From contig NZ_PQWO01000017.1 of NCBI RefSeq assembly GCF_003231495.1, forward strand, positions 30,001 through 62,000: a stretch of DNA of 32,000 nucleotides, written 5' to 3'. Origin of the DNA: Acaryochloris thomasi RCC1774. GTDB taxonomy: Bacteria; Cyanobacteriota; Cyanobacteriia; Thermosynechococcales; Thermosynechococcaceae. The notes under the pieces were generated by a model. The model was given only the letters and a program-made list of their open reading frames with translations, was not told the DNA's origin and ran no database searches. Shown one piece after another: positions 18,958 through 29,741 of the stretch (the first letter of the stretch is position 1; the number at the start of each line of letters is the position of its first letter). Both the position numbers and the translations under genes were made by a program.

Positions 18958-19100
18958 GAGAAAACGTACAAATCATAAAGAAACTTAAACAATCACTCGT
19001 TGAGGCTCATATTTAATTCTGATGAGCCACCATCATTATCAGTTAAGCGAGTGGCTGAGTCTATTTGTGAAATTTGCCATTATTATCCGGAGAATTGTCC

Positions 19101-20156
19101 ATGACCATAGCAGTCGGACGCGGCCAAGAGCGAGGATGGTTTGACGTCCTCGACGACTGGCTCAAGCGTGATCGGTTCGTCTTTATTGGTTGGTCCGGCG
19201 TTTTACTATTCCCCACCGCCTTTTTGGCACTGGGTGGATGGTTTACCGGCACAACCTTCGTTACATCTTGGTATTCCCACGGTCTTGCCAGCTCCTACCT
19301 AGAGGGCTGCAACTTTTTGACCGTTGCCATTTCCACACCTCCCGATAGCTTAGGGCACTCCCTCTTACTACCTTGGGGACCCGAAGCACAGGGTAACCTG
19401 ACCCGCTGGTTCCAGCTGGGCGGCCTGTGGACTTTTGTGGCACTGCACGGTGCCATTTCACTGGTGGGCTTCATGCTGCGTCAGTTTGAGATTGCGCGTC
19501 TTGTCGGCGTGCGTCCTTACAACGCCATTGCCTTTAGTGCACCCATTGCAGTTTTTGTCTCAGTCTTTTTGATGTACCCCTTGGGCCAGTCAAGCTGGTT
19601 CTTTGCACCGAGCTTTGGTGTCGCGGGCATCTTTAGATTCATTCTGTTTGTTCAAGGTTTCCACAACTTCACCCTCAACCCCTTTCACATGATGGGCGTT
19701 GCCGGTGTGTTGGGTGGCGCGCTTCTATGTGCGATTCACGGTGCCACAGTGGAGAACACCTTGTTTGAAGACGGTTCAGAGTCCAGCACTTTTGGTGCCT
19801 TCAACCCGACTCAAGCAGAAGAGACCTATTCAATGGTCACAGCAAACCGTTTCTGGTCACAGATTTTCGGTATTGCTTTCTCCAACAAGCGCTGGCTGCA
19901 CTTCTTCATGCTGTTTGTACCGGTTACCGGTCTATGGATGGCATCGATTGGAATTGTGGGTATTGCTTTGAACCTGCGTAGCTACGACTTCATCTCTCAG
20001 GAAGTCAGAGCGGCAGAAGACCCTGAGTTTGAGACGTTCTACACCAAGAATATTCTGCTCAACGAAGGTCTGCGTGCCTGGATGGCTCCGCAAGACCAGC
20101 CTCATGAAAACTTCATCTTCCCTGAAGAAGTACTGCCTCGCGGTAATGCTCTCTAA
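19101..20156 (+). CDS. psbD: photosystem II reaction-centre protein D2
   Basis: [28 protein letters not shown] ... [11 protein letters not shown], full-length D2. ATG 19101 gives the canonical N-terminus; the ORF track begins 9 codons upstream. Key residues are present: His in [25 protein letters not shown]. Confidence 0.97.
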
Positions 20157-20312: not shown

Positions 20313-21029
20313 CTAAAAACCACCTCCAGCACCCCCACCTCCACTGGAACCACCTCCAAAACCTCCACCGCTACTCCCTGCATGATGATTGTGGCTACTT
20401 CCTCGATTAAAGAATAGAGAGCATAACCATAAAATACCGAAGAGCATTATCTTCCACCATTGCTTAATCCACGTAGACCAGGGGCGGCTCGAACGACCTG
20501 AGTCCTTGTTTTGCAATGCTGTGACTAAAACCGATGTTCCCGAAAGAACGCCTTGATCAAAGTGATCTTGCTTGAGACTGGGGATAATCTGATCGTCAAT
20601 GAGCTGCTTCACTTCGGTATTGGGCAAGATGGGTTCGATGCCATAGCCGGTCTCAATTTCTACTCTACGATCGCCCTTTGAGACCAAAAATAAGACGCCA
20701 TTATCTTTCCCTTTTTTACCAATCCCCCAAGTATTAAACAACTCGGTTGCAAATGTCTTTGGAGATTTCGAGGGAGAAGTCTCTGGGACCGTGACCACTG
20801 CAATCTCACTACTATTTTCAGCCTCTAGCTCTGAGATCATCTGATTAAGCTTCAGCTCTGTCGGCGCGCTCAAAACATCAGCCATATCAGTGACCCAACC
20901 ACCATTGTTCTGTCGCGGGTTGGGAACTTGTTCAATAGAAACGGCGATCGCAGGCAAAGTTGAACTCGCAATGGCTGCAGCACTTGCAAAACCTGCACAC
21001 TGAATTTTGAAGGGCGTAGAAGCTAGCAT
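20313..21029 (-). CDS. TPM-domain (TLP18.3/Psb32/MOLO-1, YgcG-like) protein with C-terminal TM and Gly-rich tail
   Basis: TPM pattern VTDMADVLS...L...EAENSSEIAVVTVPE...FATELFNTWGIGKKGKDNGVLFLVSKGDRRVEIETGYG. Signal-like N-terminus starts at ATG 21029; the ORF track starts at GTG 21104. TM helix IMLFGILWLCSLFF, then SSGGGFGGGSSGGGGAGGGF. Confidence 0.8.
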   Translation of the reverse strand: MLASTPFKIQCAGFASAAAIASSTLPAIAVSIEQVPNPRQNNGGWVTDMADVLSAPTELKLNQMISELEAENSSEIAVVTVPETSPSKSPKTFATELFNTWGIGKKGKDNGVLFLVSKGDRRVEIETGYGIEPILPNTEVKQLIDDQIIPSLKQDHFDQGVLSGTSVLVTALQNKDSGRSSRPWSTWIKQWWKIMLFGILWLCSLFFNRGSSHNHHAGSSGGGFGGGSSGGGGAGGGF

Positions 21030-21207
21030 TCGTTGCCTCGTAGTTGTAACTGAAAGCACTGTCCTTGTGCTGTTATGAGTAGCTTCCTGTAAAAATAGGA
21101 GCACTACAATCGGGTTTTTTCAGATCTTTGTCATGCGATCCTCAACGGCTCGAATTAGCTTTAGGGAGATTCCGTCTCTTTCCGAAGCTGCAGAGAAACG
21201 CTTCGGA

Positions 21208-23835
21208 TCAGGAAAAAGACTCTTGTTTCTGAGTTTCTGTTTGACAGGTATTGTCAAGGGGTACGAAATCTATTTTTGAGTTGCACTGCAGGGGCTCAAT
21301 CAATACCTGTGGAGGGAACTTGCGATCGCCACTCTTCTCAAAGGCAATCTTCCCGGTTGCCCCCCAAACACTGAAGCTAGGGTCAGCTAGGGCATTACGG
21401 GTTCCTGTCGGACTAGGTTGAGTCTGGGTCCGCAAGGCAGCAATCATGGCACGCGTTGCATCATAGGTCAGGGCCGTTTGTCCTTGAATCGAGGTGCCCC
21501 ACAGTTGGGCTGTGTGCTTGGGGAAATCTGGGTTGGGGCTAGTGGCAGGATGCCAGGGGACAGAGACGACAAGGGATGGCTGGCGTACATTCGGCAGCAC
21601 TTCTAAGGTTTTAGCGTTGTGGATTCCCCACGAACCGACGATGGCGTGGCGTCCGGCGTTGGCAGCAATCAGTTGAAAGGCGTTCTCCTGAGCCGGAGAG
21701 ACTTCGCCGTCTGGAACCAGCAGGATTGCAATCTCACTGGGGTTGCCGTATTGGGCTAGGGTTGCGATCGCATCTTCAGGATCAAATCCAGGGCTAGCTA
21801 AATCTGAGAGTGGATCGTTTTGCTGCACCTGCCGAACGATCTGGCCGCCTGCTTGCTGATAGATGTCCTTGAAGTCATCCCAAAAAGAGTGGGTAAAGGG
21901 ACTCTGAGGGTTGTAGTAAATCATCACTTTTTTCTGATTGGTTTTGATCAGATGGTTCGCGACAGACGTTGCTTCCACCGTTGTGACCGGAACCGTACGG
22001 AAAAAGTATCCCCCACCCATTTGCACCAGATCCTTGGCTGTCGAACCCGGCGAAATGACCGGAACCTGATGCTCCCGATAGATGGGGATTGTAGGTTCAG
22101 ACATGTCGCTAGCGTAGTGACCCACCACCCCCATAATCCTCGGGTTAGAGACTAGATCCCGTGCTCGCTGCTGAGCTTGATCGGCCACGTTCCAGTCATC
22201 GGCAATCACAACTTTGAGACCGATTTGGTCACCCACAGGGTTTGGTTTCAGAAATGAGACATCTAGCGGTTTTGGCAGCTTACCTAGATTGAGATTGGCC
22301 TCTGTCTGGGCCTGGGCAATGCCTCGAAGGAGTTGATAAGCCAATGCGTGACTTGAAATTTGGTTGTTATCTTGACGATGCAGAAATGGAACGCTCACGG
22401 CAATCGTGTGGTGCTTGATTTGAGAGGCATCTATGATCGCATTGTTGAGATAGATCAGCGTTTCAGGATCGGCTCCATCGTCTTGCCAAGATTCCAGTAG
22501 TTTCTGGATACCCTCTTGATACTTTGCCTGGGCCAGCAAACGAACTGCTTTAACTTTGTGAACCGGACGAGACCCTAGAATCTCCTCGCCCGTGCTGATG
22601 TAGTCACCTTGCAGCGGATGAGTTAATGGATTTCTCCAGGGCTGTGCTACGAGTAGAATGCCCGCAGCGACAGCACCCAGAATTCCCCCACATTTTGCCC
22701 AAAGACGAAGAGGCTTGAGTAATCTGTTCGGCACAGTAGGGGCCTGAGGCCAAGTCAGAGCAGTAGCCTGAGGCTGCTGGAAGAGGGTCGGTAGCCAAGT
22801 TGCATAGGGAAAACGATCTTGAAGAGCCTCTAGATCATGCTGGGCCGCCAGCACCGCGTGGTGAATTGAGCGACCCGCAATTGAGAACTGTTGGATAAAA
22901 GACTGGAAAAAACGGTGGGCGACCGGATCAGGGACCGGCTCTCGCATGTAGATGACGTAGGGAATCTTTAGATCTGAGAGATGACGCGCTAATCCTAAAC
23001 CATCACAGGAATTGAAGATGCAGATTTTCAGTCCACTGGCGGCTGCGATCCTTAGATGATGATGGAGTTCTTTCGAGGTAAAGCTATCGGTCTCGTTAAT
23101 GGATAAGATGCCTCGCTGGTCTTCTGTGCGGCTGTGGCCAGCGAAGAATAAGATATCCCAGCCCTGTTCATGCATGAGGGCTTGAGCAACTTGATGACGA
23201 TTAGGCTGTTCGAGACAGGTTAGCTCGATGTGGGGAATCGCATTGAGGATTTCTAGGTCTGGGGTTAGGTTAAGGTTGCGATCGCATCCCAATATTGCCA
23301 ACACCCGCACCGGAGAGGTCAAGGTACTGGCCTGACCCTGCTGATACTCTAGAGAACCTAGCGAAATAGGAATTTGGCGATCGTGTCGCTGTAACTGATC
23401 CCAAAGATGCCACGGTAGCCGCTGCAGCTCAGGGTTATCCGTTCGAATCAGCAGCCGGATATCCTCAGAAGCACCATAAACTTCAGAAAGCTGACGAGTG
23501 ATGCGCTGAAAATCTCCAGAGGCGTTGAGCCATTGCCGAAAGCGACTCTCCAATTGCTGGGCAGCAGCATCACACTGCTGCTTAGCCTGCTGCTTTTTGC
23601 GCCTTAGATTCAGACTCTGTGCTGAGGCCGCTTCAAATTCGAGTCGAGTGGCTTCACCCAAATTGCAGTAGTATCCGTGCCAGTCTGCATAGAGAGTCGT
23701 TAGATCGGTATTCGGTGTCAAAGTGCCCAGCAGGGTGCCCTGGGTTTGAAAGCTTCCTTCTGTGCGCCACTCCAGTGCAGCTTGGACCCCTTCAGACAGT
23801 TGGCCCCGCAGCCTCAGCACGATAATATGCATCAC
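21208..23835 (-). CDS. CHAT (caspase-fold) protease - single TM - periplasmic type 1 PBP (LivK/Venus-flytrap) fusion protein
   Basis: 875 aa. CHAT core at about aa 170-350 with dyad His234 in ILFFAGHS (codon 23134-23136) and Cys277 in IFNSCDG (23005-23007). Conserved-looking LPWHLW at 23401-23418. TM helix aa 377-399 (22639-22707), with 4 basic residues on its N-side. Residues 410-850 read as a LivK-type binding protein (KVVIADDWNVADQAQQRARDLVSNPRIMGVVGHYASDMSEPTIPIYREHQVPVISPGSTAKDL). Start is GTG 23835 or ATG 23832. Confidence 0.85.
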   Translation of the reverse strand: MMHIIVLRLRGQLSEGVQAALEWRTEGSFQTQGTLLGTLTPNTDLTTLYADWHGYYCNLGEATRLEFEAASAQSLNLRRKKQQAKQQCDAAAQQLESRFRQWLNASGDFQRITRQLSEVYGASEDIRLLIRTDNPELQRLPWHLWDQLQRHDRQIPISLGSLEYQQGQASTLTSPVRVLAILGCDRNLNLTPDLEILNAIPHIELTCLEQPNRHQVAQALMHEQGWDILFFAGHSRTEDQRGILSINETDSFTSKELHHHLRIAAASGLKICIFNSCDGLGLARHLSDLKIPYVIYMREPVPDPVAHRFFQSFIQQFSIAGRSIHHAVLAAQHDLEALQDRFPYATWLPTLFQQPQATALTWPQAPTVPNRLLKPLRLWAKCGGILGAVAAGILLVAQPWRNPLTHPLQGDYISTGEEILGSRPVHKVKAVRLLAQAKYQEGIQKLLESWQDDGADPETLIYLNNAIIDASQIKHHTIAVSVPFLHRQDNNQISSHALAYQLLRGIAQAQTEANLNLGKLPKPLDVSFLKPNPVGDQIGLKVVIADDWNVADQAQQRARDLVSNPRIMGVVGHYASDMSEPTIPIYREHQVPVISPGSTAKDLVQMGGGYFFRTVPVTTVEATSVANHLIKTNQKKVMIYYNPQSPFTHSFWDDFKDIYQQAGGQIVRQVQQNDPLSDLASPGFDPEDAIATLAQYGNPSEIAILLVPDGEVSPAQENAFQLIAANAGRHAIVGSWGIHNAKTLEVLPNVRQPSLVVSVPWHPATSPNPDFPKHTAQLWGTSIQGQTALTYDATRAMIAALRTQTQPSPTGTRNALADPSFSVWGATGKIAFEKSGDRKFPPQVLIEPLQCNSKIDFVPLDNTCQTETQKQESFS

Positions 23836-23844
23836 TTTACTCGC

Positions 23845-24792
23845 CTAAATGACAAAATTTTCAACGTGTTGGGCCTCGCCATAGCTCAGTTGAAGATAGA
23901 AACGTTCATCGAGAGCCGCACTAAAGGGTCGAGGAATCAGGTCACCACTACTCGTTGGCGAGAGCTGCTGAAAGGTCTGTCCGGCGGCATCGACAACGGC
24001 AAGCTGTAGATTACTGGGCAGTGGCTGCTCAGCCTCAATGACTAGTTCAATTTTGAAGCTACCCTCTGCTTTCGGCGATAGAGCCATGATCACTTCCACA
24101 TTAAGATCATGGAGCTGAATCGTTTTGGACACCAACGCCTGATCACGAAGGTCAGAAGCAGATAACTGGAGCTTCTCAGCCTCAACGCTGCGAGTGGCGA
24201 GGCTCATCTCTGCCAACGTGAAGTCTTGCGATAGCTGCCACCCGTGGAATGCTCCCACAGCAGACTCTACCAGTATATTCCCTTGTTCTCTTGCCCAGGC
24301 CCAGACTTGACTTAGGACCGTAGTTTGACTCTCATGCAGGTACTGAGGGAGTGCTTCAATAGGCTGAAGCTGACTAAGGAAAATTTTTCCGCTGGGTGGA
24401 ATGGGCTGAGGATTAAAGCCTAGAATTTGAGCCTGCTCAAGATGATCTTCAATCTGCACCATTACGTAGGCGATGCGATCGCACCAAGCATCCACCGGCA
24501 CCTGAAAGGTTGTCTCGCCAGCCTGGATCGGGCAGCACTCCAGTCGGCCCATATCTTTGACCACGAGATCTGCTCCCTCTAGCAGCTGGGAAAGAATGGA
24601 ACTGTGGCGCGGTTCAACCTCAAAGGCCATGCATTTCAGATAAAAATCAACGGCATAAACCGCTAGACCATTGCGAAACTGCTGCTGATTGTGATCGGCA
24701 TCGAACTGCGGCTGTACCTGTTTTTGGGCAATGTTCCAGGCTTTAGAAGTCAGCGGAACCGGAAAACCTGAGATTGAAGTTGAAGAGGTCAT
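23845..24792 (-). CDS. DUF1822-family protein
   Basis: 315 aa. Matches my memory of the cyanobacterial DUF1822 pattern: PVPL....A...A......NGLAVYAVDFYLKCMAFEVE, GRLECCPIQAGETTFQVPVDAWCDRIAYVMVQIEDHLEQAQILGF. Its stop is only 9 nt before the CHAT gene start. Confidence 0.8.
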   Translation of the reverse strand: MTSSTSISGFPVPLTSKAWNIAQKQVQPQFDADHNQQQFRNGLAVYAVDFYLKCMAFEVEPRHSSILSQLLEGADLVVKDMGRLECCPIQAGETTFQVPVDAWCDRIAYVMVQIEDHLEQAQILGFNPQPIPPSGKIFLSQLQPIEALPQYLHESQTTVLSQVWAWAREQGNILVESAVGAFHGWQLSQDFTLAEMSLATRSVEAEKLQLSASDLRDQALVSKTIQLHDLNVEVIMALSPKAEGSFKIELVIEAEQPLPSNLQLAVVDAAGQTFQQLSPTSSGDLIPRPFSAALDERFYLQLSYGEAQHVENFVI

Positions 24793-24832: not shown

Positions 24833-25531
24833 CTAGAGATACTGATTAAAGTAGGGCAGTAGTTTCTGCAGAGTCCGCTGGAAAAAACAGGACAGCGTTT
24901 GGATCGGGATGCCGGTTTGGTCCGCCAGCTCTCGCCAGGTTTTGCCTTGGATATGACGGGCGATCGCCAAACATTGAAACGTAACCGTTGGGTGATGTCT
25001 AACGGCATAGGCGGCCAGCTTGCCCTCTGGATCTGTTTCTAGAAAAACCTGAAGTTTTTCATGTTCACGATCTGCCTCAGGATAGGGGATTTTATCCGGC
25101 TCAAAAAGAGGGACAGCAGGCTGTTCGCCCATCAGCTCTCGAAACTTGAAGCTCAGCGTACTGTTGACCCAAGCCATCACGGGATGCTCGCGTCGGTAAA
25201 GCTCAGGCTTCTGACAGATATAGAAATACATTTTCTGTTTAGCCTCGTTATATAGGTCAGCAAAGGCAGGGGCTGAATAGAACTGAGCATACTTTCTCAA
25301 TCGATTCAGTTGCCCTGACTGCTCAATGGTGATCACCAGCCGAGTCAATGCTTGCTGCCGAGCAATGGACTGTGAAGGATGGCCTTGAGCTTCTAACACT
25401 AACGCCAATAATTTTTGATCAATGGACTCATCCATATCTGGCTCTGAGGTTGAAGAGAAATGAGAGAGTCCCTCCTTTGTAAGCACTAAGGTCTCTATTT
25501 CTTTTGAATCAGGAACTGTGGTCTCCAGCAT
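24833..25531 (-). CDS. sigma-70-family-like (ECF-sized) protein
   Basis: 232 aa. LLALVLEAQGHPSQSIARQQALTRLVITIEQSG, then a region-2-like block (LYNEAKQKMYFYICQKPELYRREHPVMAWVNSTLSFKFRELM). C-terminal region-4-like HTH (GKTWRELADQTGIPIQTLSCFFQRTLQKL). Stop lies 40 nt before the DUF1822 start. Confidence 0.7.
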   Translation of the reverse strand: MLETTVPDSKEIETLVLTKEGLSHFSSTSEPDMDESIDQKLLALVLEAQGHPSQSIARQQALTRLVITIEQSGQLNRLRKYAQFYSAPAFADLYNEAKQKMYFYICQKPELYRREHPVMAWVNSTLSFKFRELMGEQPAVPLFEPDKIPYPEADREHEKLQVFLETDPEGKLAAYAVRHHPTVTFQCLAIARHIQGKTWRELADQTGIPIQTLSCFFQRTLQKLLPYFNQYL

Positions 25532-27124: not shown

Positions 27125-28513
27125 ATGAATAAGCAGCTTTATTCAACTGACCGGATCATCGCTCAGTCTTCAGAAGGAACCACAACTCAGCCGGGGTTCG
27201 ATGTTGAAATTCAGCCCCCCTCTAATATTCTGGGTGTCGGATTGCCTCTGGCTTTAGCCGTCTGCGGTAGTGTGCTGAGCGTTTGGTTTTTGAAGTCTTT
27301 CTTAGTGATTTGTAAGCCCAGCGAAGTGGTCATTCTCTCGGGGCGTAAGTGGCGCACTCCAGAGGGTCAGCGGGTCGGCTACCGCGTGATCACCGGGGGG
27401 CGTGCGATGCGCATCCCCATCGTGGAGACGGTGAAGCGGATGGATGTCACGACGATGCCCGTGCCGGTGGAAGTCCATAATGCCTATTCCAAAGGCGGAA
27501 TTCCCTTGCATATTCAGGCGATCGCAAATATCAAAATCTCCAGCAATCCCAAGGTGGTCGGTAATGCCATTGAGCGATTCTTGGGGCATAAACGCACAGA
27601 AATTATCCGAGTCGCTCAAGAAACATTGGCGGGCAATCTGCGCGGCGTTGTCGCCACCCTAACCCCAGAACAGGTCAACGAAGATCGTCTCAAATTTGCC
27701 GAACATATTGCCTCAGATGTCAGCCGACAACTGCAGACCTTAGGGCTCCATTTAGATATTCTCAAAATTCAGAGCGTTGCAGACGATGTCGACTACCTCA
27801 GTTCTCTCGGTCGCAAGCGAATCGCCATGATTTTGCGTGATGCCGAAGTGGCAGAGTCTGATGCACTAACGGCGGCAGAACAAGAGGAGGCTGAGTGCCA
27901 GGAGCGGTCGCAGGTGGCCGAGACTCAGGATCGGATTGTGATCATTGAGCAGGAGAATCAGCTCCGTAAAATCACAGCCCAACTGGAGCGACAGGCGCGC
28001 TCTGAAGAAGAAATTACCGTCGCGGCGACAAATGAACGACAGGCCAAAATGGAGCAAGTCTTACAAACCCTCCGGGCCAAAGTAGAGCGCTTGCGGCTGC
28101 AGGCCGATCAAATCTTACCGGCTCAAGCACAACAGCAGGCCGCAGAGCTACGACAGCGGGGCAACGCCGCCATTTTGGAGGAGAACGCTCGCGCTGCGGC
28201 CCTCGTCAACGACATGCTAGCTGAGGTATGGCAAGAGATTGGCACGGATGCCTCTCAAGTCTTCTTAAGTCAGCAGATCGAAACCGTGCTGCGTGAGGCA
28301 GTGCAGATTCCTGAGCGACTGAAGCTGCACCAGGTCAGCGTGGTGGACAACGGCGATGGTAAGGCCATCGCGAGCCTAGTCAAAGTTTACCCCCAGGTAG
28401 TGCGCCAGTTCCTAGACAGTCTCCACGAAACCCTGGGGATTGATGTCGTCGGCACGCTGACGCAGGCACAACTGCCTTCCTCGGATAGCCATTCTCATCA
28501 ACTACAAGCATAG
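27125..28513 (+). CDS. flotillin-family SPFH (band 7) protein, paralogue 1
   Basis: 462 aa. Membrane hairpin, SPFH core (AYSKGGIPLHIQAIANIKI...NAIERFLG...ETLAGNLRGVVATLTPEQVNEDR...DYLSSLGRKRIA), then a long E/A/Q-rich coiled-coil flotillin domain. ATG preceded by GAGGT. Confidence 0.85.
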   Translation: MNKQLYSTDRIIAQSSEGTTTQPGFDVEIQPPSNILGVGLPLALAVCGSVLSVWFLKSFLVICKPSEVVILSGRKWRTPEGQRVGYRVITGGRAMRIPIVETVKRMDVTTMPVPVEVHNAYSKGGIPLHIQAIANIKISSNPKVVGNAIERFLGHKRTEIIRVAQETLAGNLRGVVATLTPEQVNEDRLKFAEHIASDVSRQLQTLGLHLDILKIQSVADDVDYLSSLGRKRIAMILRDAEVAESDALTAAEQEEAECQERSQVAETQDRIVIIEQENQLRKITAQLERQARSEEEITVAATNERQAKMEQVLQTLRAKVERLRLQADQILPAQAQQQAAELRQRGNAAILEENARAAALVNDMLAEVWQEIGTDASQVFLSQQIETVLREAVQIPERLKLHQVSVVDNGDGKAIASLVKVYPQVVRQFLDSLHETLGIDVVGTLTQAQLPSSDSHSHQLQA

Positions 28514-28523
28514 GGGAACAATT

Positions 28524-29741
28524 ATGGAACTCATTCTCATCTTCATGGGCCTCGGAAGCCTTAGCGTTGCCACTGGCTGGGGCGTCATTCAAAACTTCTA
28601 TCGCATTTGCCAACCCAGCGAAGTCTTGATCTTTGCCGGTCGCCGGACGCGATTAGCCAGTGGTCAGTCCATGGGCTATCGCCTAGTCAAGGGCGGCAGC
28701 AGTCTGCAGGTGCCCCTATTAGAGCAGACCTTCCACATGGATCTGACGAATATGATTATTGACCTGCAGGTGACCGGGGCCTATTCCAAAGGCGGCATTC
28801 CGCTGACGGTTACAGGGGTCGCCAACATCAAAATTGCCAGTACAGAACCGACTATTCACAACGCCATTGAACGTCTCTTGGGTAAAAAGCGGGAGCAGAT
28901 TGAGCAACTGGCGAAAGAAACCCTAGAGGGAAATCTACGGGGAGTACTAGCAAGTCTCACACCAGAACAGGCCAATTCCGACCAGCTTGCCTTTGCCAAG
29001 AGCCTTTTAGACGAGGCCGAAGAAGATCTAGAAAAACTGGGCCTTTTATTGGACAGCTTGCAAATTCAAACCATTTCTGACGAAGTGAGCTATCTCGATT
29101 CTTTAGGGCGTCAGCAGCAAGCAGAGCTGATCCGCGACGCTCGCATTGCAGAAGCTCAGTCCAGAGCCGAGTCTGTGATTAAGGACTCGGCCAACCTCCG
29201 CAGTACCGCACTCCGAAAGCTGCAGCGGGACGAAGAAATTGCCAAGGCTAATGCGGAAAAACGGGTACGGGATGCGCTGACAAAAAGGGTAGCGGCGATC
29301 GCAGAGGTTGAATCTGTTGTAGAGGTCCAGGTTGCTCGCGTCAAGGCTGAAGCTGCTGTGGAAACAGAGCGAATTCATCAGGTAGAGCAGCAGCTTCAAG
29401 CGGAAGTGATTGCCCCAGCTGAAGCGGACTGTGAAGTTGCGATCGCATCTGCCAAAGGCCAAGCCGCCCGCATTATCGAAGAAGGTAAAGCCCAGGCCAC
29501 CGGCACTCGACAGTTGGGGCAATCTTGGCAGTCGGCTGGGTCCAATGCTCAGGACATTTTTATGTTTCAGCAGCTGCATATTTTAACCAAATTAATGGCC
29601 GCTAGCGTCCCGGAAGTAAGCGTGAAAAACGTCAGCGTTATCGATACCCAAGACGGGGCCACCGCCACTAAATTGGCCGCCTTCATAGAACAATTCCAGC
29701 AAGCCACCGGCATAGATATGTATCGAATGCTAGGGAAATAG
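28524..29741 (+). CDS. flotillin-family SPFH (band 7) protein, paralogue 2
   Basis: 405 aa. Same architecture as paralogue 1 (AYSKGGIPLTVTGVANIKI...NAIERLLG...ETLEGNLRGVLASLTPEQANSDQ...SYLDSLGRQQQA). Starts 10 nt after the paralogue 1 stop. Confidence 0.85.
   Translation: MELILIFMGLGSLSVATGWGVIQNFYRICQPSEVLIFAGRRTRLASGQSMGYRLVKGGSSLQVPLLEQTFHMDLTNMIIDLQVTGAYSKGGIPLTVTGVANIKIASTEPTIHNAIERLLGKKREQIEQLAKETLEGNLRGVLASLTPEQANSDQLAFAKSLLDEAEEDLEKLGLLLDSLQIQTISDEVSYLDSLGRQQQAELIRDARIAEAQSRAESVIKDSANLRSTALRKLQRDEEIAKANAEKRVRDALTKRVAAIAEVESVVEVQVARVKAEAAVETERIHQVEQQLQAEVIAPAEADCEVAIASAKGQAARIIEEGKAQATGTRQLGQSWQSAGSNAQDIFMFQQLHILTKLMAASVPEVSVKNVSVIDTQDGATATKLAAFIEQFQQATGIDMYRMLGK

What the first reader, a model, noticed from the sequence alone, without database searches (positions are those of the whole stretch)
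21208..23835. Receptor-protease architecture: cytoplasmic CHAT domain, one TM helix, periplasmic LivK-type binding domain
There is no N-terminal signal peptide. The only hydrophobic helix (aa 377-399, nt 22639-22707) has four basic residues on its N-side (RLLKPLRLWAK) and one on its C-side. This predicts N-in/C-out topology. The caspase-like module (His234 at 23134-23136, Cys277 at 23005-23007, LPWHLW at 23401-23418) would then be cytoplasmic, and the roughly 440-residue type 1 periplasmic-binding-protein fold would be outside. Type 1 PBP or Venus-flytrap domains normally feed ABC transporters, chemoreceptors, kinases or (in eukaryotes) class C GPCRs and guanylate cyclases. Coupling one directly to a caspase-fold protease across the membrane would be a one-component 'receptor protease'. 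The first roughly 120 residues (MMHIIVLRLRG...LYADWHGYYCNL...coiled QQAKQQCDAAAQQLESRF) form an additional N-terminal module of unknown role.
Basis: partly seen in the sequence, partly recalled or inferred. Interest (0 to 1): 0.75.

Follow-up and report, generated by a model that had tools for sequence, protein, structure and literature searches.

The report
Membrane receptor with caspase-like protease
This cyanobacterial gene encodes a single-pass membrane protein with an outside Venus-flytrap ligand-binding domain and an inside caspase-like protease, in an operon with a sigma-factor-like protein; it is real and conserved, but belongs to a family already predicted by comparative genomics and never tested experimentally.

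Summary
Window 21208-23835 (-) is one intact ORF. It is WP_110988060.1 of Acaryochloris thomasi RCC1774, 874 aa from the ATG at 23832, and is mis-named 'ABC transporter substrate-binding protein'.

- **CHAT protease domain:** it has an invariant His234/Cys277 dyad, and its modelled fold matches separase, Csx29 and SAVED-CHAT.
- **Membrane segment:** there is one hydrophobic segment (aa ~379-397). It is conserved in position in 108 of 114 homologues and shows a strong positive-inside bias.
- **Binding domain:** a LivJ/LivK-type type I binding-protein fold follows (TM-score 0.83).

More than 100 cyanobacterial homologues share this architecture, so it is not an assembly fusion.

The 'unknown' N-terminal 120 residues plus the CHAT domain form a constant module. 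The same module is fused elsewhere to CHASE2, PsbP, GUN4, macro, TPR and other domains. It is usually preceded by a DUF1822 gene and an ECF-like sigma gene, as it is here. This matches the 'EACC2-caspase' systems described computationally by Kaur et al. 2021 (eLife e70394). The same ectodomain also occurs on Ser/Thr kinases.

The most likely mechanism is inferred, not shown: an extracellular ligand activates the cytoplasmic protease, which cleaves DUF1822 or itself and so releases the sigma-like factor. I rate it a new member of a known but untested kind, of moderate interest.

The parts
21208..23832 (-). Gene for the receptor-protease (874 aa from ATG 23832; 875 aa if the GTG at 23835 is used). 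It is WP_110988060.1 of Acaryochloris thomasi RCC1774.
   Evidence: More than 100 full-length homologues share the same Pfam architecture.
23470..23835 (-). N-terminal alpha+beta domain, aa 1-122: three beta-strands (aa 3-39) and three long helices (aa 44-122). Assigned to the EACC2 domain of Kaur et al. 2021.
   Evidence: AF2 models have pLDDT ~90. The domain is conserved in CHAT proteins with other C-termini. The architecture 'EACC2+CASPASE+CHASE2+TM+TM' is listed in the paper's source data.
22771..23466 (-). CHAT (caspase-fold, clan CD) protease domain, aa 124-355, including the LPWHLW motif at aa 140-145.
   Evidence: Pfam CHAT E=3e-10. Foldseek matches separase at E=1e-9, Csx29 at 1e-8 and SAVED-CHAT at 4e-7.
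23134..23136 (-). Catalytic His234, within the invariant motif G-H-S.
   Evidence: Invariant in 45/45 sequences and 28/28 sequences.
23005..23007 (-). Catalytic Cys277, within the invariant motif N-S-C-D-G.
   Evidence: Invariant.
22645..22701 (-). Single transmembrane helix, core aa 379-397, predicted N-in/C-out.
   Evidence: Kyte-Doolittle peak 1.89. An equivalent segment occurs in 108/114 homologues, with K/R 3.85 on the N-side vs 1.87 on the C-side, p=1e-15. The model has low pLDDT only at aa 369-409.
22426..22608 (-). Extracytoplasmic juxtamembrane motif (S414-x-G-E417) and a TPR-like helical hairpin (aa 425-470, with invariant D456-P-E458 and Y462-x-N-N465).
   Evidence: Longer homologues (~1240 aa) carry TPR Pfam hits.
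21256..22413 (-). Type I periplasmic-binding-protein (Venus-flytrap) domain, aa 475-860.
   Evidence: Pfam Peripla_BP_6 E=2e-21. PDB profile hits are LivK/LivJ/HAAT proteins, E down to 4e-27. Foldseek gives TM-score 0.83 to the Leu-bound protein 4q6b.
23845..24792 (-). DUF1822 gene (315 aa), ending 12 nt upstream of the receptor-protease start. It is the candidate substrate or adaptor.
   Evidence: Pfam DUF1822 E=1e-33. A DUF1822 gene lies directly upstream in 39/55 module-bearing genes. The DUF1822 C-terminal domain is fused to the CHAT module in P0228. The middle linker is hypervariable.
24833..25531 (-). Gene for the sigma-factor-like protein (232 aa), first gene of the operon.
   Evidence: Weak sigma-70 region 4 hits. 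A family profile hits ECF SigE 2q1z at E=0.0026, with the sigma2 and sigma4 regions collinear. UniRef names it 'Sigma-70 family RNA polymerase sigma factor'. It is conserved upstream in 31/55 loci.

Best explanation
The gene encodes a single-pass (N-in/C-out) membrane receptor.

**Parts.** The cytoplasmic half is a constant EACC2-like domain plus a catalytically intact CHAT (caspase/separase-fold) cysteine protease. The extracytoplasmic half is a TPR-like hairpin plus a type I Venus-flytrap binding domain. It is the last gene of a conserved three-gene operon: ECF-like sigma factor, DUF1822 protein, receptor-protease.

**Shown here.**
- the domains
- the intact catalytic dyad
- the conserved TM with positive-inside bias
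- the operon linkage
- modular swapping of both halves

**Inferred mechanism.**
1. An unknown small ligand, probably carboxylate-bearing and not Leu/Ile/Val in the LivJ binding mode, closes or dimerises the ectodomain.
2. This repositions or oligomerises the cytoplasmic CHAT domains and switches the protease on.
3. The protease cleaves the co-encoded DUF1822 protein (most plausibly in its hypervariable linker) and/or itself.
4. The sigma-like factor is released or activated, which changes transcription irreversibly.

This would be a protease-based analogue of anti-sigma/ECF-sigma signalling. The DUF1822 protein would play the role that Csx30 plays for Craspase and CalpT plays for CalpL.
For: **Domains and dyad**
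- Pfam hits are above cut-off for both domains.
- H234 and C277 are invariant.
- AF2 models have pLDDT 89.
- The N-terminal half resembles separase, Csx29 and SAVED-CHAT.
- The C-terminal half resembles LivK/LivJ/HAAT binding proteins at TM-score 0.83.

**Topology**
- The TM is conserved in position but not in sequence in 108/114 homologues. The flanks carry net charge +3.0 (N-side) vs -0.3 (C-side).
- The homologous ectodomain sits after a single TM in Pkinase proteins.
- Cysteine pairs are conserved only in the ectodomain.

**Operon linkage**
- The gaps between the genes are 12 and 40 nt.
- The same gene order occurs in three distant cyanobacteria with unrelated flanks.
- DUF1822 is upstream of 39/55 module-bearing genes and the sigma-like gene of 31/55. 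Neither is upstream of any of the 15 kinase paralogues.
- A DUF1822 C-terminal domain is fused to the CHAT module in P0228.

**Sigma-like protein**
- The family profile hits ECF SigE with sigma2 and sigma4 regions collinear.

**Literature**
- Kaur et al. 2021 proposed stimulus sensing by the variable C-terminus, caspase autopeptidase activation, and output through the TRADD-N/DUF1822 product and/or ECF sigma.
- Csx29 (a CHAT protease) cleaves Csx30, which binds the sigma factor RpoE (PMC9825189).
- CalpL, CalpT and CalpS form a protease / anti-sigma / ECF-sigma tripartite system.
Against: - No experiment exists on any member of this family.
- The sigma-factor assignment is weak. The single sequence gives only a region-4 HTH hit and the profile reaches only E=0.0026.
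- Nothing shows that DUF1822 binds the sigma-like protein or is cleaved. DUF1822 has no recognisable anti-sigma domain.
- About 30-45% of module-bearing genes lacked a detectable DUF1822 or sigma-like gene upstream. Single-sequence phmmer makes this a lower bound on linkage.
- The ligand is unknown. The LivJ alpha-ammonium binders Y202 and E226 are replaced by V and W.
- Family variants carrying TIR or macro domains fit a conflict or cell-death role as well as they fit a sensory one.
Confidence: 0.55

Rival explanations
1. This is a conflict or programmed-cell-death system rather than an environmental signalling pathway. On activation the caspase cuts within its own polypeptide and releases the N-terminal EACC2 domain, or processes DUF1822, as a toxic effector. 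This would parallel EACC1, which a neighbouring caspase cleaves to form membrane pores. The sigma factor would be an accessory.
For: - Kaur et al. named EACC2 by analogy with EACC1 and place these systems among counter-invader and apoptosis-like systems of multicellular bacteria.
- EACC1 has been shown experimentally to be a caspase-activated pore-former (PMC12642450).
- The same module is fused to TIR and macro domains in other members.
- Genomes carry several paralogues, some in tandem.
Against: - EACC2 was named by analogy with EACC1. No relationship between the two domains was tested here.
- The EACC2-like domain packs against CHAT in a confident single-body model (pTM 0.88) that resembles the separase pseudo-protease plus protease arrangement. 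It does not look like a detachable propeptide.
- The sensor is an extracellular small-molecule-binding fold that is shared with Ser/Thr kinases.
- There are no PADLOC hits.
- The chromosomal neighbourhood is housekeeping: psbD, a Psb32-like gene and Obg.
- A dedicated sigma-like gene argues for a transcriptional output.
Confidence: 0.22
2. As annotated, it is a membrane-tethered substrate-binding protein that delivers amino acids to an ABC importer. The CHAT part would be an inactive scaffold.
For: Public annotation reads 'ABC transporter substrate-binding protein' or 'branched-chain amino acid transport system substrate-binding protein'. The closest solved structures are ABC-transporter binding proteins.
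Against: - No LivHMGF-type permease or ATPase gene lies next to it in the window or in the homologous loci examined.
- The His/Cys dyad and surrounding motifs are invariant, which is not expected of a dead scaffold.
- The CHAT module keeps its DUF1822 and sigma partners whatever the C-terminal domain is.
- The residues that bind the alpha-ammonium group in LivJ are lost.
Confidence: 0.03
3. The hydrophobic segment is not a membrane helix and the whole protein is cytoplasmic. The binding domain would then sense an intracellular metabolite.
For: The window's own segment is only moderately hydrophobic (Kyte-Doolittle 1.89) and rich in Gly and Ala. AF2 models only aa 387-394 as a helix.
Against: - The segment is conserved in position but variable in sequence in 108/114 homologues, with mean hydrophobicity 2.02.
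- It shows a strong positive-inside bias.
- Kinase paralogues have the same layout.
- Paired cysteines occur only in the C-terminal half.
- The sister architecture carries CHASE2, a known extracytoplasmic sensor.
Confidence: 0.05

Closest known systems
EACC2-caspase systems with a DUF1822/TRADD-N+TPR gene and an ECF sigma gene (Kaur, Iyer, Burroughs & Aravind 2021, eLife 10:e70394; computational description only)
   Same: - A constant N-terminal alpha+beta domain plus a caspase-fold domain.
- A highly variable C-terminus that can be extracellular behind TM helices.
- A DUF1822 gene and an ECF-like sigma gene upstream.
- Restriction to cyanobacteria.

The window's aa 1-364 are 37-42% identical to CHAT-CHASE2 proteins, which have the architecture the paper lists as EACC2+CASPASE+CHASE2+TM+TM.
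   Different: Here the C-terminal sensor is a single TM plus a TPR-like hairpin plus a type I binding-protein domain. I did not find this sensor named in the paper's text or in the Figure 3 source data that I could search (the figure itself was not visible). I could not test whether this DUF1822 protein contains a TRADD-N domain.
Craspase: Cas7-11 with Csx29 (TPR-CHAT), Csx30 and RpoE, type III-E CRISPR
   Same: A CHAT protease that is inactive until a sensor is engaged. Its substrate Csx30 binds an ECF sigma factor encoded in the same locus. Csx29 is among the best structural matches to the window's N-terminal half (E=1e-8, TMq 0.60).
   Different: The Craspase sensor is a cytoplasmic RNA-guided complex, not a transmembrane ligand-binding domain. 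DUF1822 showed no detected similarity to Csx30. There is no CRISPR context here. Cleavage is not shown.
CalpL-CalpT-CalpS (SAVED-Lon protease, anti-sigma factor, ECF-like sigma factor) and the classical RseA/sigmaE regulated proteolysis
   Same: The logic is the same: signal, then protease, then cleavage of a sigma-binding partner, then a transcriptional response. The components are encoded together.
   Different: The protease families differ (Lon, or DegS/RseP, versus CHAT). Here the sensor and the protease are one transmembrane polypeptide. The anti-sigma role of DUF1822 is only inferred.
Receptor Ser/Thr kinases and ANF-receptor/mGluR-type receptors with type I binding-protein ectodomains
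   Same: The layout is ectodomain, single TM, cytoplasmic enzyme. In cyanobacteria the homologous ectodomain (36-41% identity over aa ~370-861) is fused to Pkinase.
   Different: The cytoplasmic output here is a caspase-fold protease instead of a kinase, a cyclase or a 7TM domain. Signalling would therefore be irreversible.
LivJ/LivK (HAAT-family ABC transporter binding proteins)
   Same: The fold matches (TM-score 0.83). The lobe-1 residues that bind the ligand carboxylate are conserved: S79 maps to S576 and T102 to T599.
   Different: The protein is membrane-anchored, with no partner ABC genes nearby. The LivJ residues Y202, E226 and F276 are replaced by V, W and Q/R, so the ligand is probably not Leu/Ile/Val.
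Separase (peptidase family C50)
   Same: It is the best structural match over the whole N-terminal 362 residues (TMq 0.52-0.60). The His-Cys dyad has the same geometry.
   Different: There is no sequence-level similarity. Separase has no membrane anchor and belongs to a different biological context.

Membership tests
EACC2-caspase / DUF1822 / ECF-sigma systems (Kaur et al. 2021) | A constant N-terminal alpha+beta EACC2 domain directly preceding the caspase domain | tested here: met
   The model shows three strands plus three helices at aa 1-122 with pLDDT ~90. The region is conserved at 37-42% identity in CHAT-CHASE2, CHAT-PsbP and CHAT-COP23-trypsin proteins. 'EACC2+CASPASE+CHASE2+TM+TM' is the paper's label for that architecture. 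The test is indirect because no EACC2 reference profile was available.
EACC2-caspase / DUF1822 / ECF-sigma systems (Kaur et al. 2021) | A caspase-fold domain with a catalytic His/Cys dyad | tested here: met
   H234 and C277 are invariant. Foldseek matches separase, Csx29, SAVED-CHAT, gingipain and caspase-6.
EACC2-caspase / DUF1822 / ECF-sigma systems (Kaur et al. 2021) | A highly variable C-terminal region on a constant N-terminal module | tested here: met
   The C-termini found on the same module are type I binding-protein, CHASE2, PsbP_2, COP23+Trypsin_2, pentapeptide, GUN4, macro, NfeD, TPR and the DUF1822 C-terminal domain.
EACC2-caspase / DUF1822 / ECF-sigma systems (Kaur et al. 2021) | Neighbouring genes for a DUF1822 (TPR) protein and an ECF sigma factor | tested here: met
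   In the window, the sigma-like gene (24833-25531) is followed by DUF1822 (23845-24792) and then the receptor. The same order occurs in L001-L005. DUF1822 is upstream in 39/55 module-bearing genes and the sigma-like gene in 31/55.
EACC2-caspase / DUF1822 / ECF-sigma systems (Kaur et al. 2021) | A TRADD-N domain in the DUF1822-type partner (only a subset of systems) | not tested
   No TRADD-N profile hit appeared in Pfam for the window protein at E<=0.01. No dedicated bacterial TRADD-N model was available.
CHAT domain (Pfam PF12770, clan CD cysteine peptidases) | A profile match above the curated threshold and the conserved dyad | tested here: met
   The score is 40.4 bits against a cut-off of 24. 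The dyad is invariant. The structural neighbours are CHAT proteins and separases.
CHAT domain (Pfam PF12770, clan CD cysteine peptidases) | Proteolytic activity | not testable with these tools
   This needs an enzyme assay with a C277A control.
Type I periplasmic binding protein (Peripla_BP_6 / LivJ-LivK HAAT family) | The two-lobe Venus-flytrap fold, with a profile match above threshold | tested here: met
   The score is 77.6 bits against a cut-off of 31.7. PDB profile hits reach E=4e-27. Foldseek gives TM-score 0.83 to 4q6b.
Type I periplasmic binding protein (Peripla_BP_6 / LivJ-LivK HAAT family) | The LivJ-type residues that bind the alpha-amino acid (S79, T102, Y202, E226) | tested here: not met
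   S79 maps to S576 (45/45 sequences) and T102 to T599 (35/45), so these are kept. Y202 maps to V712 and E226 to W736 (W in 25, S in 9, D in 5), so these are lost. The LivJ sequence was recalled from memory and checked only against its published residue numbering.
Type I periplasmic binding protein (Peripla_BP_6 / LivJ-LivK HAAT family) | Genetic association with ABC permease and ATPase genes (the role the annotation implies) | tested here: not met
   The immediate neighbours are DUF1822, the sigma-like gene, a TPM/Psb32-like gene and psbD. No Liv-type ABC genes occur in the homologous loci examined.
ECF sigma factor (the partner protein at 24833-25531) | Sigma-70 region 2 and region 4 | tested here: inconclusive
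   The single sequence gives only HTH/region 4 hits, below threshold. A 29-sequence profile hits ECF SigE 2q1z at E=0.0026, with collinear sigma2-like (56-110) and sigma4-like (159-194) stretches, and SigK 4nqw at E=0.22.
Anti-sigma/sigma regulated-proteolysis modules (RseA-sigmaE, CalpT-CalpS, Csx30-RpoE) | The partner protein binds the sigma factor and is cleaved by the signal-activated protease | not testable with these tools
   Only operon linkage and the DUF1822-C/CHAT fusion bear on this. Pull-down and cleavage assays, or multimer modelling, are needed.

The most novel reading that the evidence does not exclude
Cyanobacteria may possess a third class of transmembrane signal transducer, beside histidine kinases and Ser/Thr kinases. 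It would be a ligand-gated, single-pass 'receptor caspase'. Its extracellular Venus-flytrap domain would control a cytoplasmic CHAT protease, and that protease would irreversibly cleave a DUF1822 adaptor to release a dedicated, divergent ECF-like sigma factor. The type I binding-protein subfamily would be the version that senses a small extracellular metabolite.
Probability: 0.35. Interest if true: 0.7.

Novelty: new member of a known kind. Interest (0 to 1): 0.45.

Why it matters
**Signalling.** If the inferred mechanism holds, this is a compact route from an extracellular small molecule to gene expression. It would run through proteolysis rather than phosphorylation, in a phylum where hundreds of such modules exist (at least 930 protein clusters carry the constant module). 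It would also give a bacterial example of receptor-coupled caspase activation that can be studied with a defined ligand-binding domain.

**Annotation.** The whole subfamily is currently mis-annotated as 'ABC transporter substrate-binding protein' or 'branched-chain amino acid transport'. This would mislead metabolic reconstructions.

**Experimental access.** The homologous ectodomain also occurs on Ser/Thr kinases. Identifying the ligand once may therefore help with the related kinase ectodomains, although they are only 36-41% identical and may not share a ligand.

Tried and rejected
- **Assembly or sequencing fusion:** rejected. More than 100 independent full-length homologues exist, and the exact protein is in RefSeq.
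- **PADLOC defence-system models:** no hit for any of the three operon proteins.
- **Sigma-like protein, single sequence vs PDB:** nothing meaningful. Only a family profile gave a weak ECF hit.
- **N-terminal module, sequence profile vs PDB:** only a marginal hit to the SAVED-CHAT entry 8tl0 (E=0.07). Structure comparison was needed.
- **LivJ alignment:** a first MAFFT --keeplength alignment of LivJ gave wrong numbering. It was replaced by hmmalign.
- **Promoter and terminator scans:** no more sites than in shuffled sequence. One promoter-like site at 25845-25818 (-) lies upstream of the sigma-like gene, but this is not evidence.
- **Literature searches:** 'CHAT domain' with CHASE2, and with cyanobacteria and periplasmic binding protein, found nothing.
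- **Not possible here:** I could not inspect pocket geometry because model coordinates are not exposed.


Full report
**Observation**

The region 21208-23835 on the minus strand is a single uninterrupted ORF of 875 codons. The first two codons are GTG ATG. The product that starts at the ATG (23832, 874 aa) is identical to WP_110988060.1 of Acaryochloris thomasi RCC1774. There it is called 'ABC transporter substrate-binding protein'.

- His234 at 23134-23136
- Cys277 at 23005-23007
- LPWHLW at 23401-23418
- hydrophobic segment at 22639-22707

The basic-residue count is also right: four K/R on the N-side and one on the C-side.

Pfam finds three domains, all above the curated thresholds:
- CHAT, aa 197-339, E=3e-10
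- Peripla_BP_6, aa 541-834, E=2e-21
- ANF_receptor, E=8e-11

Only one 19-residue window exceeds a Kyte-Doolittle mean of 1.6 (peak 1.89 at aa ~378-396).

**Not an artefact**

A search of about 5.8 billion proteins returned 3356 hits. At least 100 of the top 120 clusters are full-length (97-100% coverage, 29-66% identity) with the same CHAT + Peripla_BP_6/ANF_receptor architecture. Nearly all named sources are cyanobacteria: Thermosynechococcaceae, Moorena, Coleofasciculus, Okeania, Limnoraphis and Nostocaceae. One locus from the later genome-contig scan (L010) is labelled Candidatus Sericytochromatia. The Nostocales versions are ~1240 aa and carry extra TPRs. An assembly or sequencing fusion is excluded.

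**Structure**

An AF2 model built on 45 homologues has mean pLDDT 89.1. The only low-confidence parts are aa 369-409 (the TM and linker) and the last five residues.

The C-terminal half matches Leu-bound ABC binding proteins, LivK, LivJ and Atu2422 at TM-score ~0.83. mGluR, GABA-B and CaSR ectodomains rank lower. Sequence profiles agree, with 3td9 at 4e-27 and LivJ 1z15 at 1e-20.

A separate model of aa 1-362 (pLDDT 89.4, pTM 0.88) matches the following:
- separases: 9hma at 1e-9; C. thermophilum SPD at TMq 0.60
- Csx29 of Craspase: 8eey_B at 1e-8, TMq 0.60
- the SAVED-CHAT filament: 8tl0 at 4e-7
- gingipain R
- caspase-6

G233-H234-S235 and N275-S276-C277-D278-G279 are invariant in every alignment made. 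The protease looks catalytically competent.

**Topology**

- Among 114 full-length homologues, 108 have a segment with KD>=1.6 at the equivalent position (mean peak 2.02). Its sequence is not conserved.
- The 15 residues on the N-side carry 3.85 K/R (net charge +3.0). The 15 on the C-side carry 1.87 K/R (net charge -0.3). N>C in 89 proteins and C>N in 7 (Wilcoxon p=1e-15).
- No homologue has a signal-peptide-like N-terminus.
- Conserved cysteine pairs occur only beyond the TM: C851 with C864 or column 872, and a pair in an insertion after residue 435.
- The homologous ectodomain, including the juxtamembrane S-x-G-E and DPE..Y-x-NN motifs, is found behind a single positive-inside TM in proteins whose N-terminal half is a Ser/Thr kinase. 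A kinase must be cytoplasmic.

N-in/C-out is therefore well supported, although it has not been shown experimentally.

**The N-terminal ~120 residues and the operon**

The N-terminal region folds as three beta-strands (aa 3-39) and three long helices (aa 44-122). It is followed by a CHAT domain that starts with the typical 'L-x-x-LPW/F-E/H-x-L' strand-helix at aa 126-149.

A genome scan found three kinds of relatives:
1. Full-length proteins.
2. Proteins that match only aa 1-364 (37-42% identity). Their C-termini are CHASE2 (most), PsbP_2, COP23+Trypsin_2 or pentapeptide repeats.
3. Proteins that match only aa ~370-861. These are Pkinase-TM-PBP proteins.

A profile of the N-terminal module retrieves at least 930 protein clusters, all with cyanobacterial names. 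Their C-termini also include GUN4, macro, NfeD, TPR and zinc-ribbon domains. A TIR domain is found at the N-terminus of some. One cluster (P0228) carries the C-terminal domain of DUF1822 fused to the module.

The window gene is preceded by two genes on the same strand:
- a DUF1822 gene (23845-24792, E=1e-33), 12 nt upstream
- a 232-aa gene (24833-25531), a further 40 nt upstream

The same three-gene order, with unrelated flanks, occurs in a Thermosynechococcaceae-like metagenome contig, in Coleofasciculus and in Nostocaceae. Among genes that carry the N-terminal module and have at least 2.2 kb of upstream DNA, 39/55 have DUF1822 directly upstream and 31/55 have the 232-aa homologue. None of the 15 kinase paralogues has either. 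The partners therefore belong to the protease module, not to the sensor.

The 232-aa family has two conserved blocks. Its profile best matches ECF SigE (2q1z, E=0.0026), with both a sigma2-like and a sigma4-like stretch in order. UniRef calls it a sigma-70 family sigma factor. I treat it as ECF-like, but only weakly established.

**Literature**

[quoted passage not shown] They propose stimulus-induced autopeptidase activation, with output through the TRADD-N/DUF1822 product and/or the sigma factor.

Their source data list 'EACC2+CASPASE+CHASE2+TM+TM' next to 'DUF1822 family protein'. I found no mention of a type I binding-protein variant in the text or in the Figure 3 source data. I could not see the figure.

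No other paper in the library links CHAT with DUF1822, CHASE2 or periplasmic binding proteins. No experiment on any member was found.

**Mechanism**

Shown:
- the domain identities
- the intact dyad
- the conserved single TM and charge bias
- operon coupling
- modular exchange of sensor and output

Inferred: ligand binding by the flytrap changes the arrangement or oligomeric state of the cytoplasmic CHAT domains and activates them. Flytrap domains typically work as dimers in ANF and mGluR receptors; this is established knowledge and was not tested here.

Other CHAT proteases are activated by such sensor-driven rearrangements:
- Csx29 is activated by target-RNA binding and then cleaves Csx30, which binds the sigma factor RpoE (PMC9825189).
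- SAVED-CHAT is captured as an 'activated SAVED-CHAT filament' in PDB entry 8tl0; I did not read the corresponding preprint listed.
- CalpL, CalpT and CalpS form a protease / anti-sigma / ECF-sigma triad.

By analogy, the DUF1822 protein is the best candidate substrate or adaptor. It has a conserved N-domain, a hypervariable and insertion-prone linker at aa ~140-215, and a conserved beta-rich C-domain. That C-domain is fused to the CHAT module in P0228.

**Ligand**

The ligand is unknown. The LivJ residues that hold the ligand carboxylate are kept: S79 maps to S576 in 45/45 sequences and T102 to T599 in 35/45. The residues that hold the alpha-ammonium group and line the side-chain pocket are not kept: Y202 maps to V, E226 to W/S/D, and F276 to R/Q. 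The LivJ sequence was taken from memory and is consistent with published numbering.

**Main rival**

The main rival is a conflict or cell-death role. In that reading the caspase liberates a toxic fragment, as has been shown for the differently named EACC1 (PMC12642450). TIR and macro variants of the module fit that idea.

Several observations favour signalling for this subfamily:
- the extracellular small-molecule sensor is shared with kinases
- a dedicated sigma-like gene is present
- there are no PADLOC hits
- the chromosomal setting is housekeeping

**Verdict**

The receptor-protease reading is largely right but incomplete: it missed the operon and the constant module. It is also less novel than claimed. 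The gene is a further sensor variant within a family that has already been described computationally and remains untested. I therefore score it as a new member of a known kind, with moderate interest.

Noticed in passing
window 27125-28513 (+) and 28524-29741 (+); also L004/L005 1457-4170 and L013 50-2751: Two tandem SPFH/Band_7 genes lie next to the operon, divergently, ~1.6 kb upstream of the sigma-like gene. Clear orthologues of the same pair (E down to 1e-186) sit immediately upstream of the sigma-like gene in the Nostocaceae and Brasilonema loci. Separately, some EACC2-CHAT proteins end in an NfeD-like domain (P0147, Pfam 'NfeD-like C-terminal, partner-binding domain'). From my own knowledge, NfeD proteins partner with SPFH proteins. 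This may be a functional link to membrane microdomains, or it may be coincidence.
   Followed up: partly
window 24568-24576 (-), DUF1822 residues A74-D75-L76: The DUF1822 family has an invariant A-D-L within a consensus 'D-V-A-D-L....G-x-L-E-C-R-P' (31/31 sequences). It resembles a caspase-type Asp site, but it may simply be a structural motif inside the folded N-domain. I could not model it.
   Followed up: no
P0228 (525 aa): This protein is a natural fusion of the EACC2-CHAT module with the C-terminal beta-rich domain of DUF1822 (Pfam positions 226-370). It is a Rosetta-stone hint that DUF1822 acts directly with the protease.
   Followed up: partly
window 23832-23835: The ORF tool starts the gene at GTG 23835. 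The adjacent ATG at 23832 is the start used in RefSeq (874 aa). Residue numbers in the finding and in this report are therefore RefSeq numbers +1.
   Followed up: yes
L015 5001-10151; L038/L039; L077 2045-7733; L011 788-2170; L014 295-1695: Several genomes carry tandem paralogues: CHAT-PBP next to CHAT-PBP, or runs of Pkinase-PBP genes. L011 and L014 each have a separate ~460-aa ORF upstream of the operon that matches the window protein (E=3e-47 and 1e-50). I take these to be binding-domain-only proteins like the one confirmed by Pfam in L066. This suggests lineage-specific expansion and shuffling of this ectodomain.
   Followed up: partly
window 19074-20156 (+) and 20313-21104 (-): The downstream neighbours are a photosystem II reaction-centre protein and a TPM-domain protein resembling the PSII repair factor Psb32. 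The first has a Photo_RC hit and an N-terminus that reads like D2/PsbD; its real start is probably the internal MTIAVG. The second scores below the NCBIfam cut-off (70.6 vs 160 bits). Neither neighbour was conserved next to the homologous operons examined: the only other TPM match, in L044, lies beside a kinase paralogue, and psbD was not searched for.
   Followed up: partly
window 21418-22155 (+), 22604-22798 (-), 23619-24009 (+): Short ORFs of 60-111 aa overlap the large gene on other frames or the other strand. They look like by-products of the ORF listing, and nothing supports them.
   Followed up: no
aa 1-362 model vs separase: Foldseek alignments to separase are long (464-506 alignment columns, gaps included) and give TMq up to 0.60, which implies that much of the 362-residue query is matched. 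The EACC2 strands and helices together with CHAT may therefore mimic the separase arrangement of pseudo-protease domain, helical insert and active protease domain. This could mean that EACC2 is a degenerate second caspase-like lobe rather than an independent effector.
   Followed up: no
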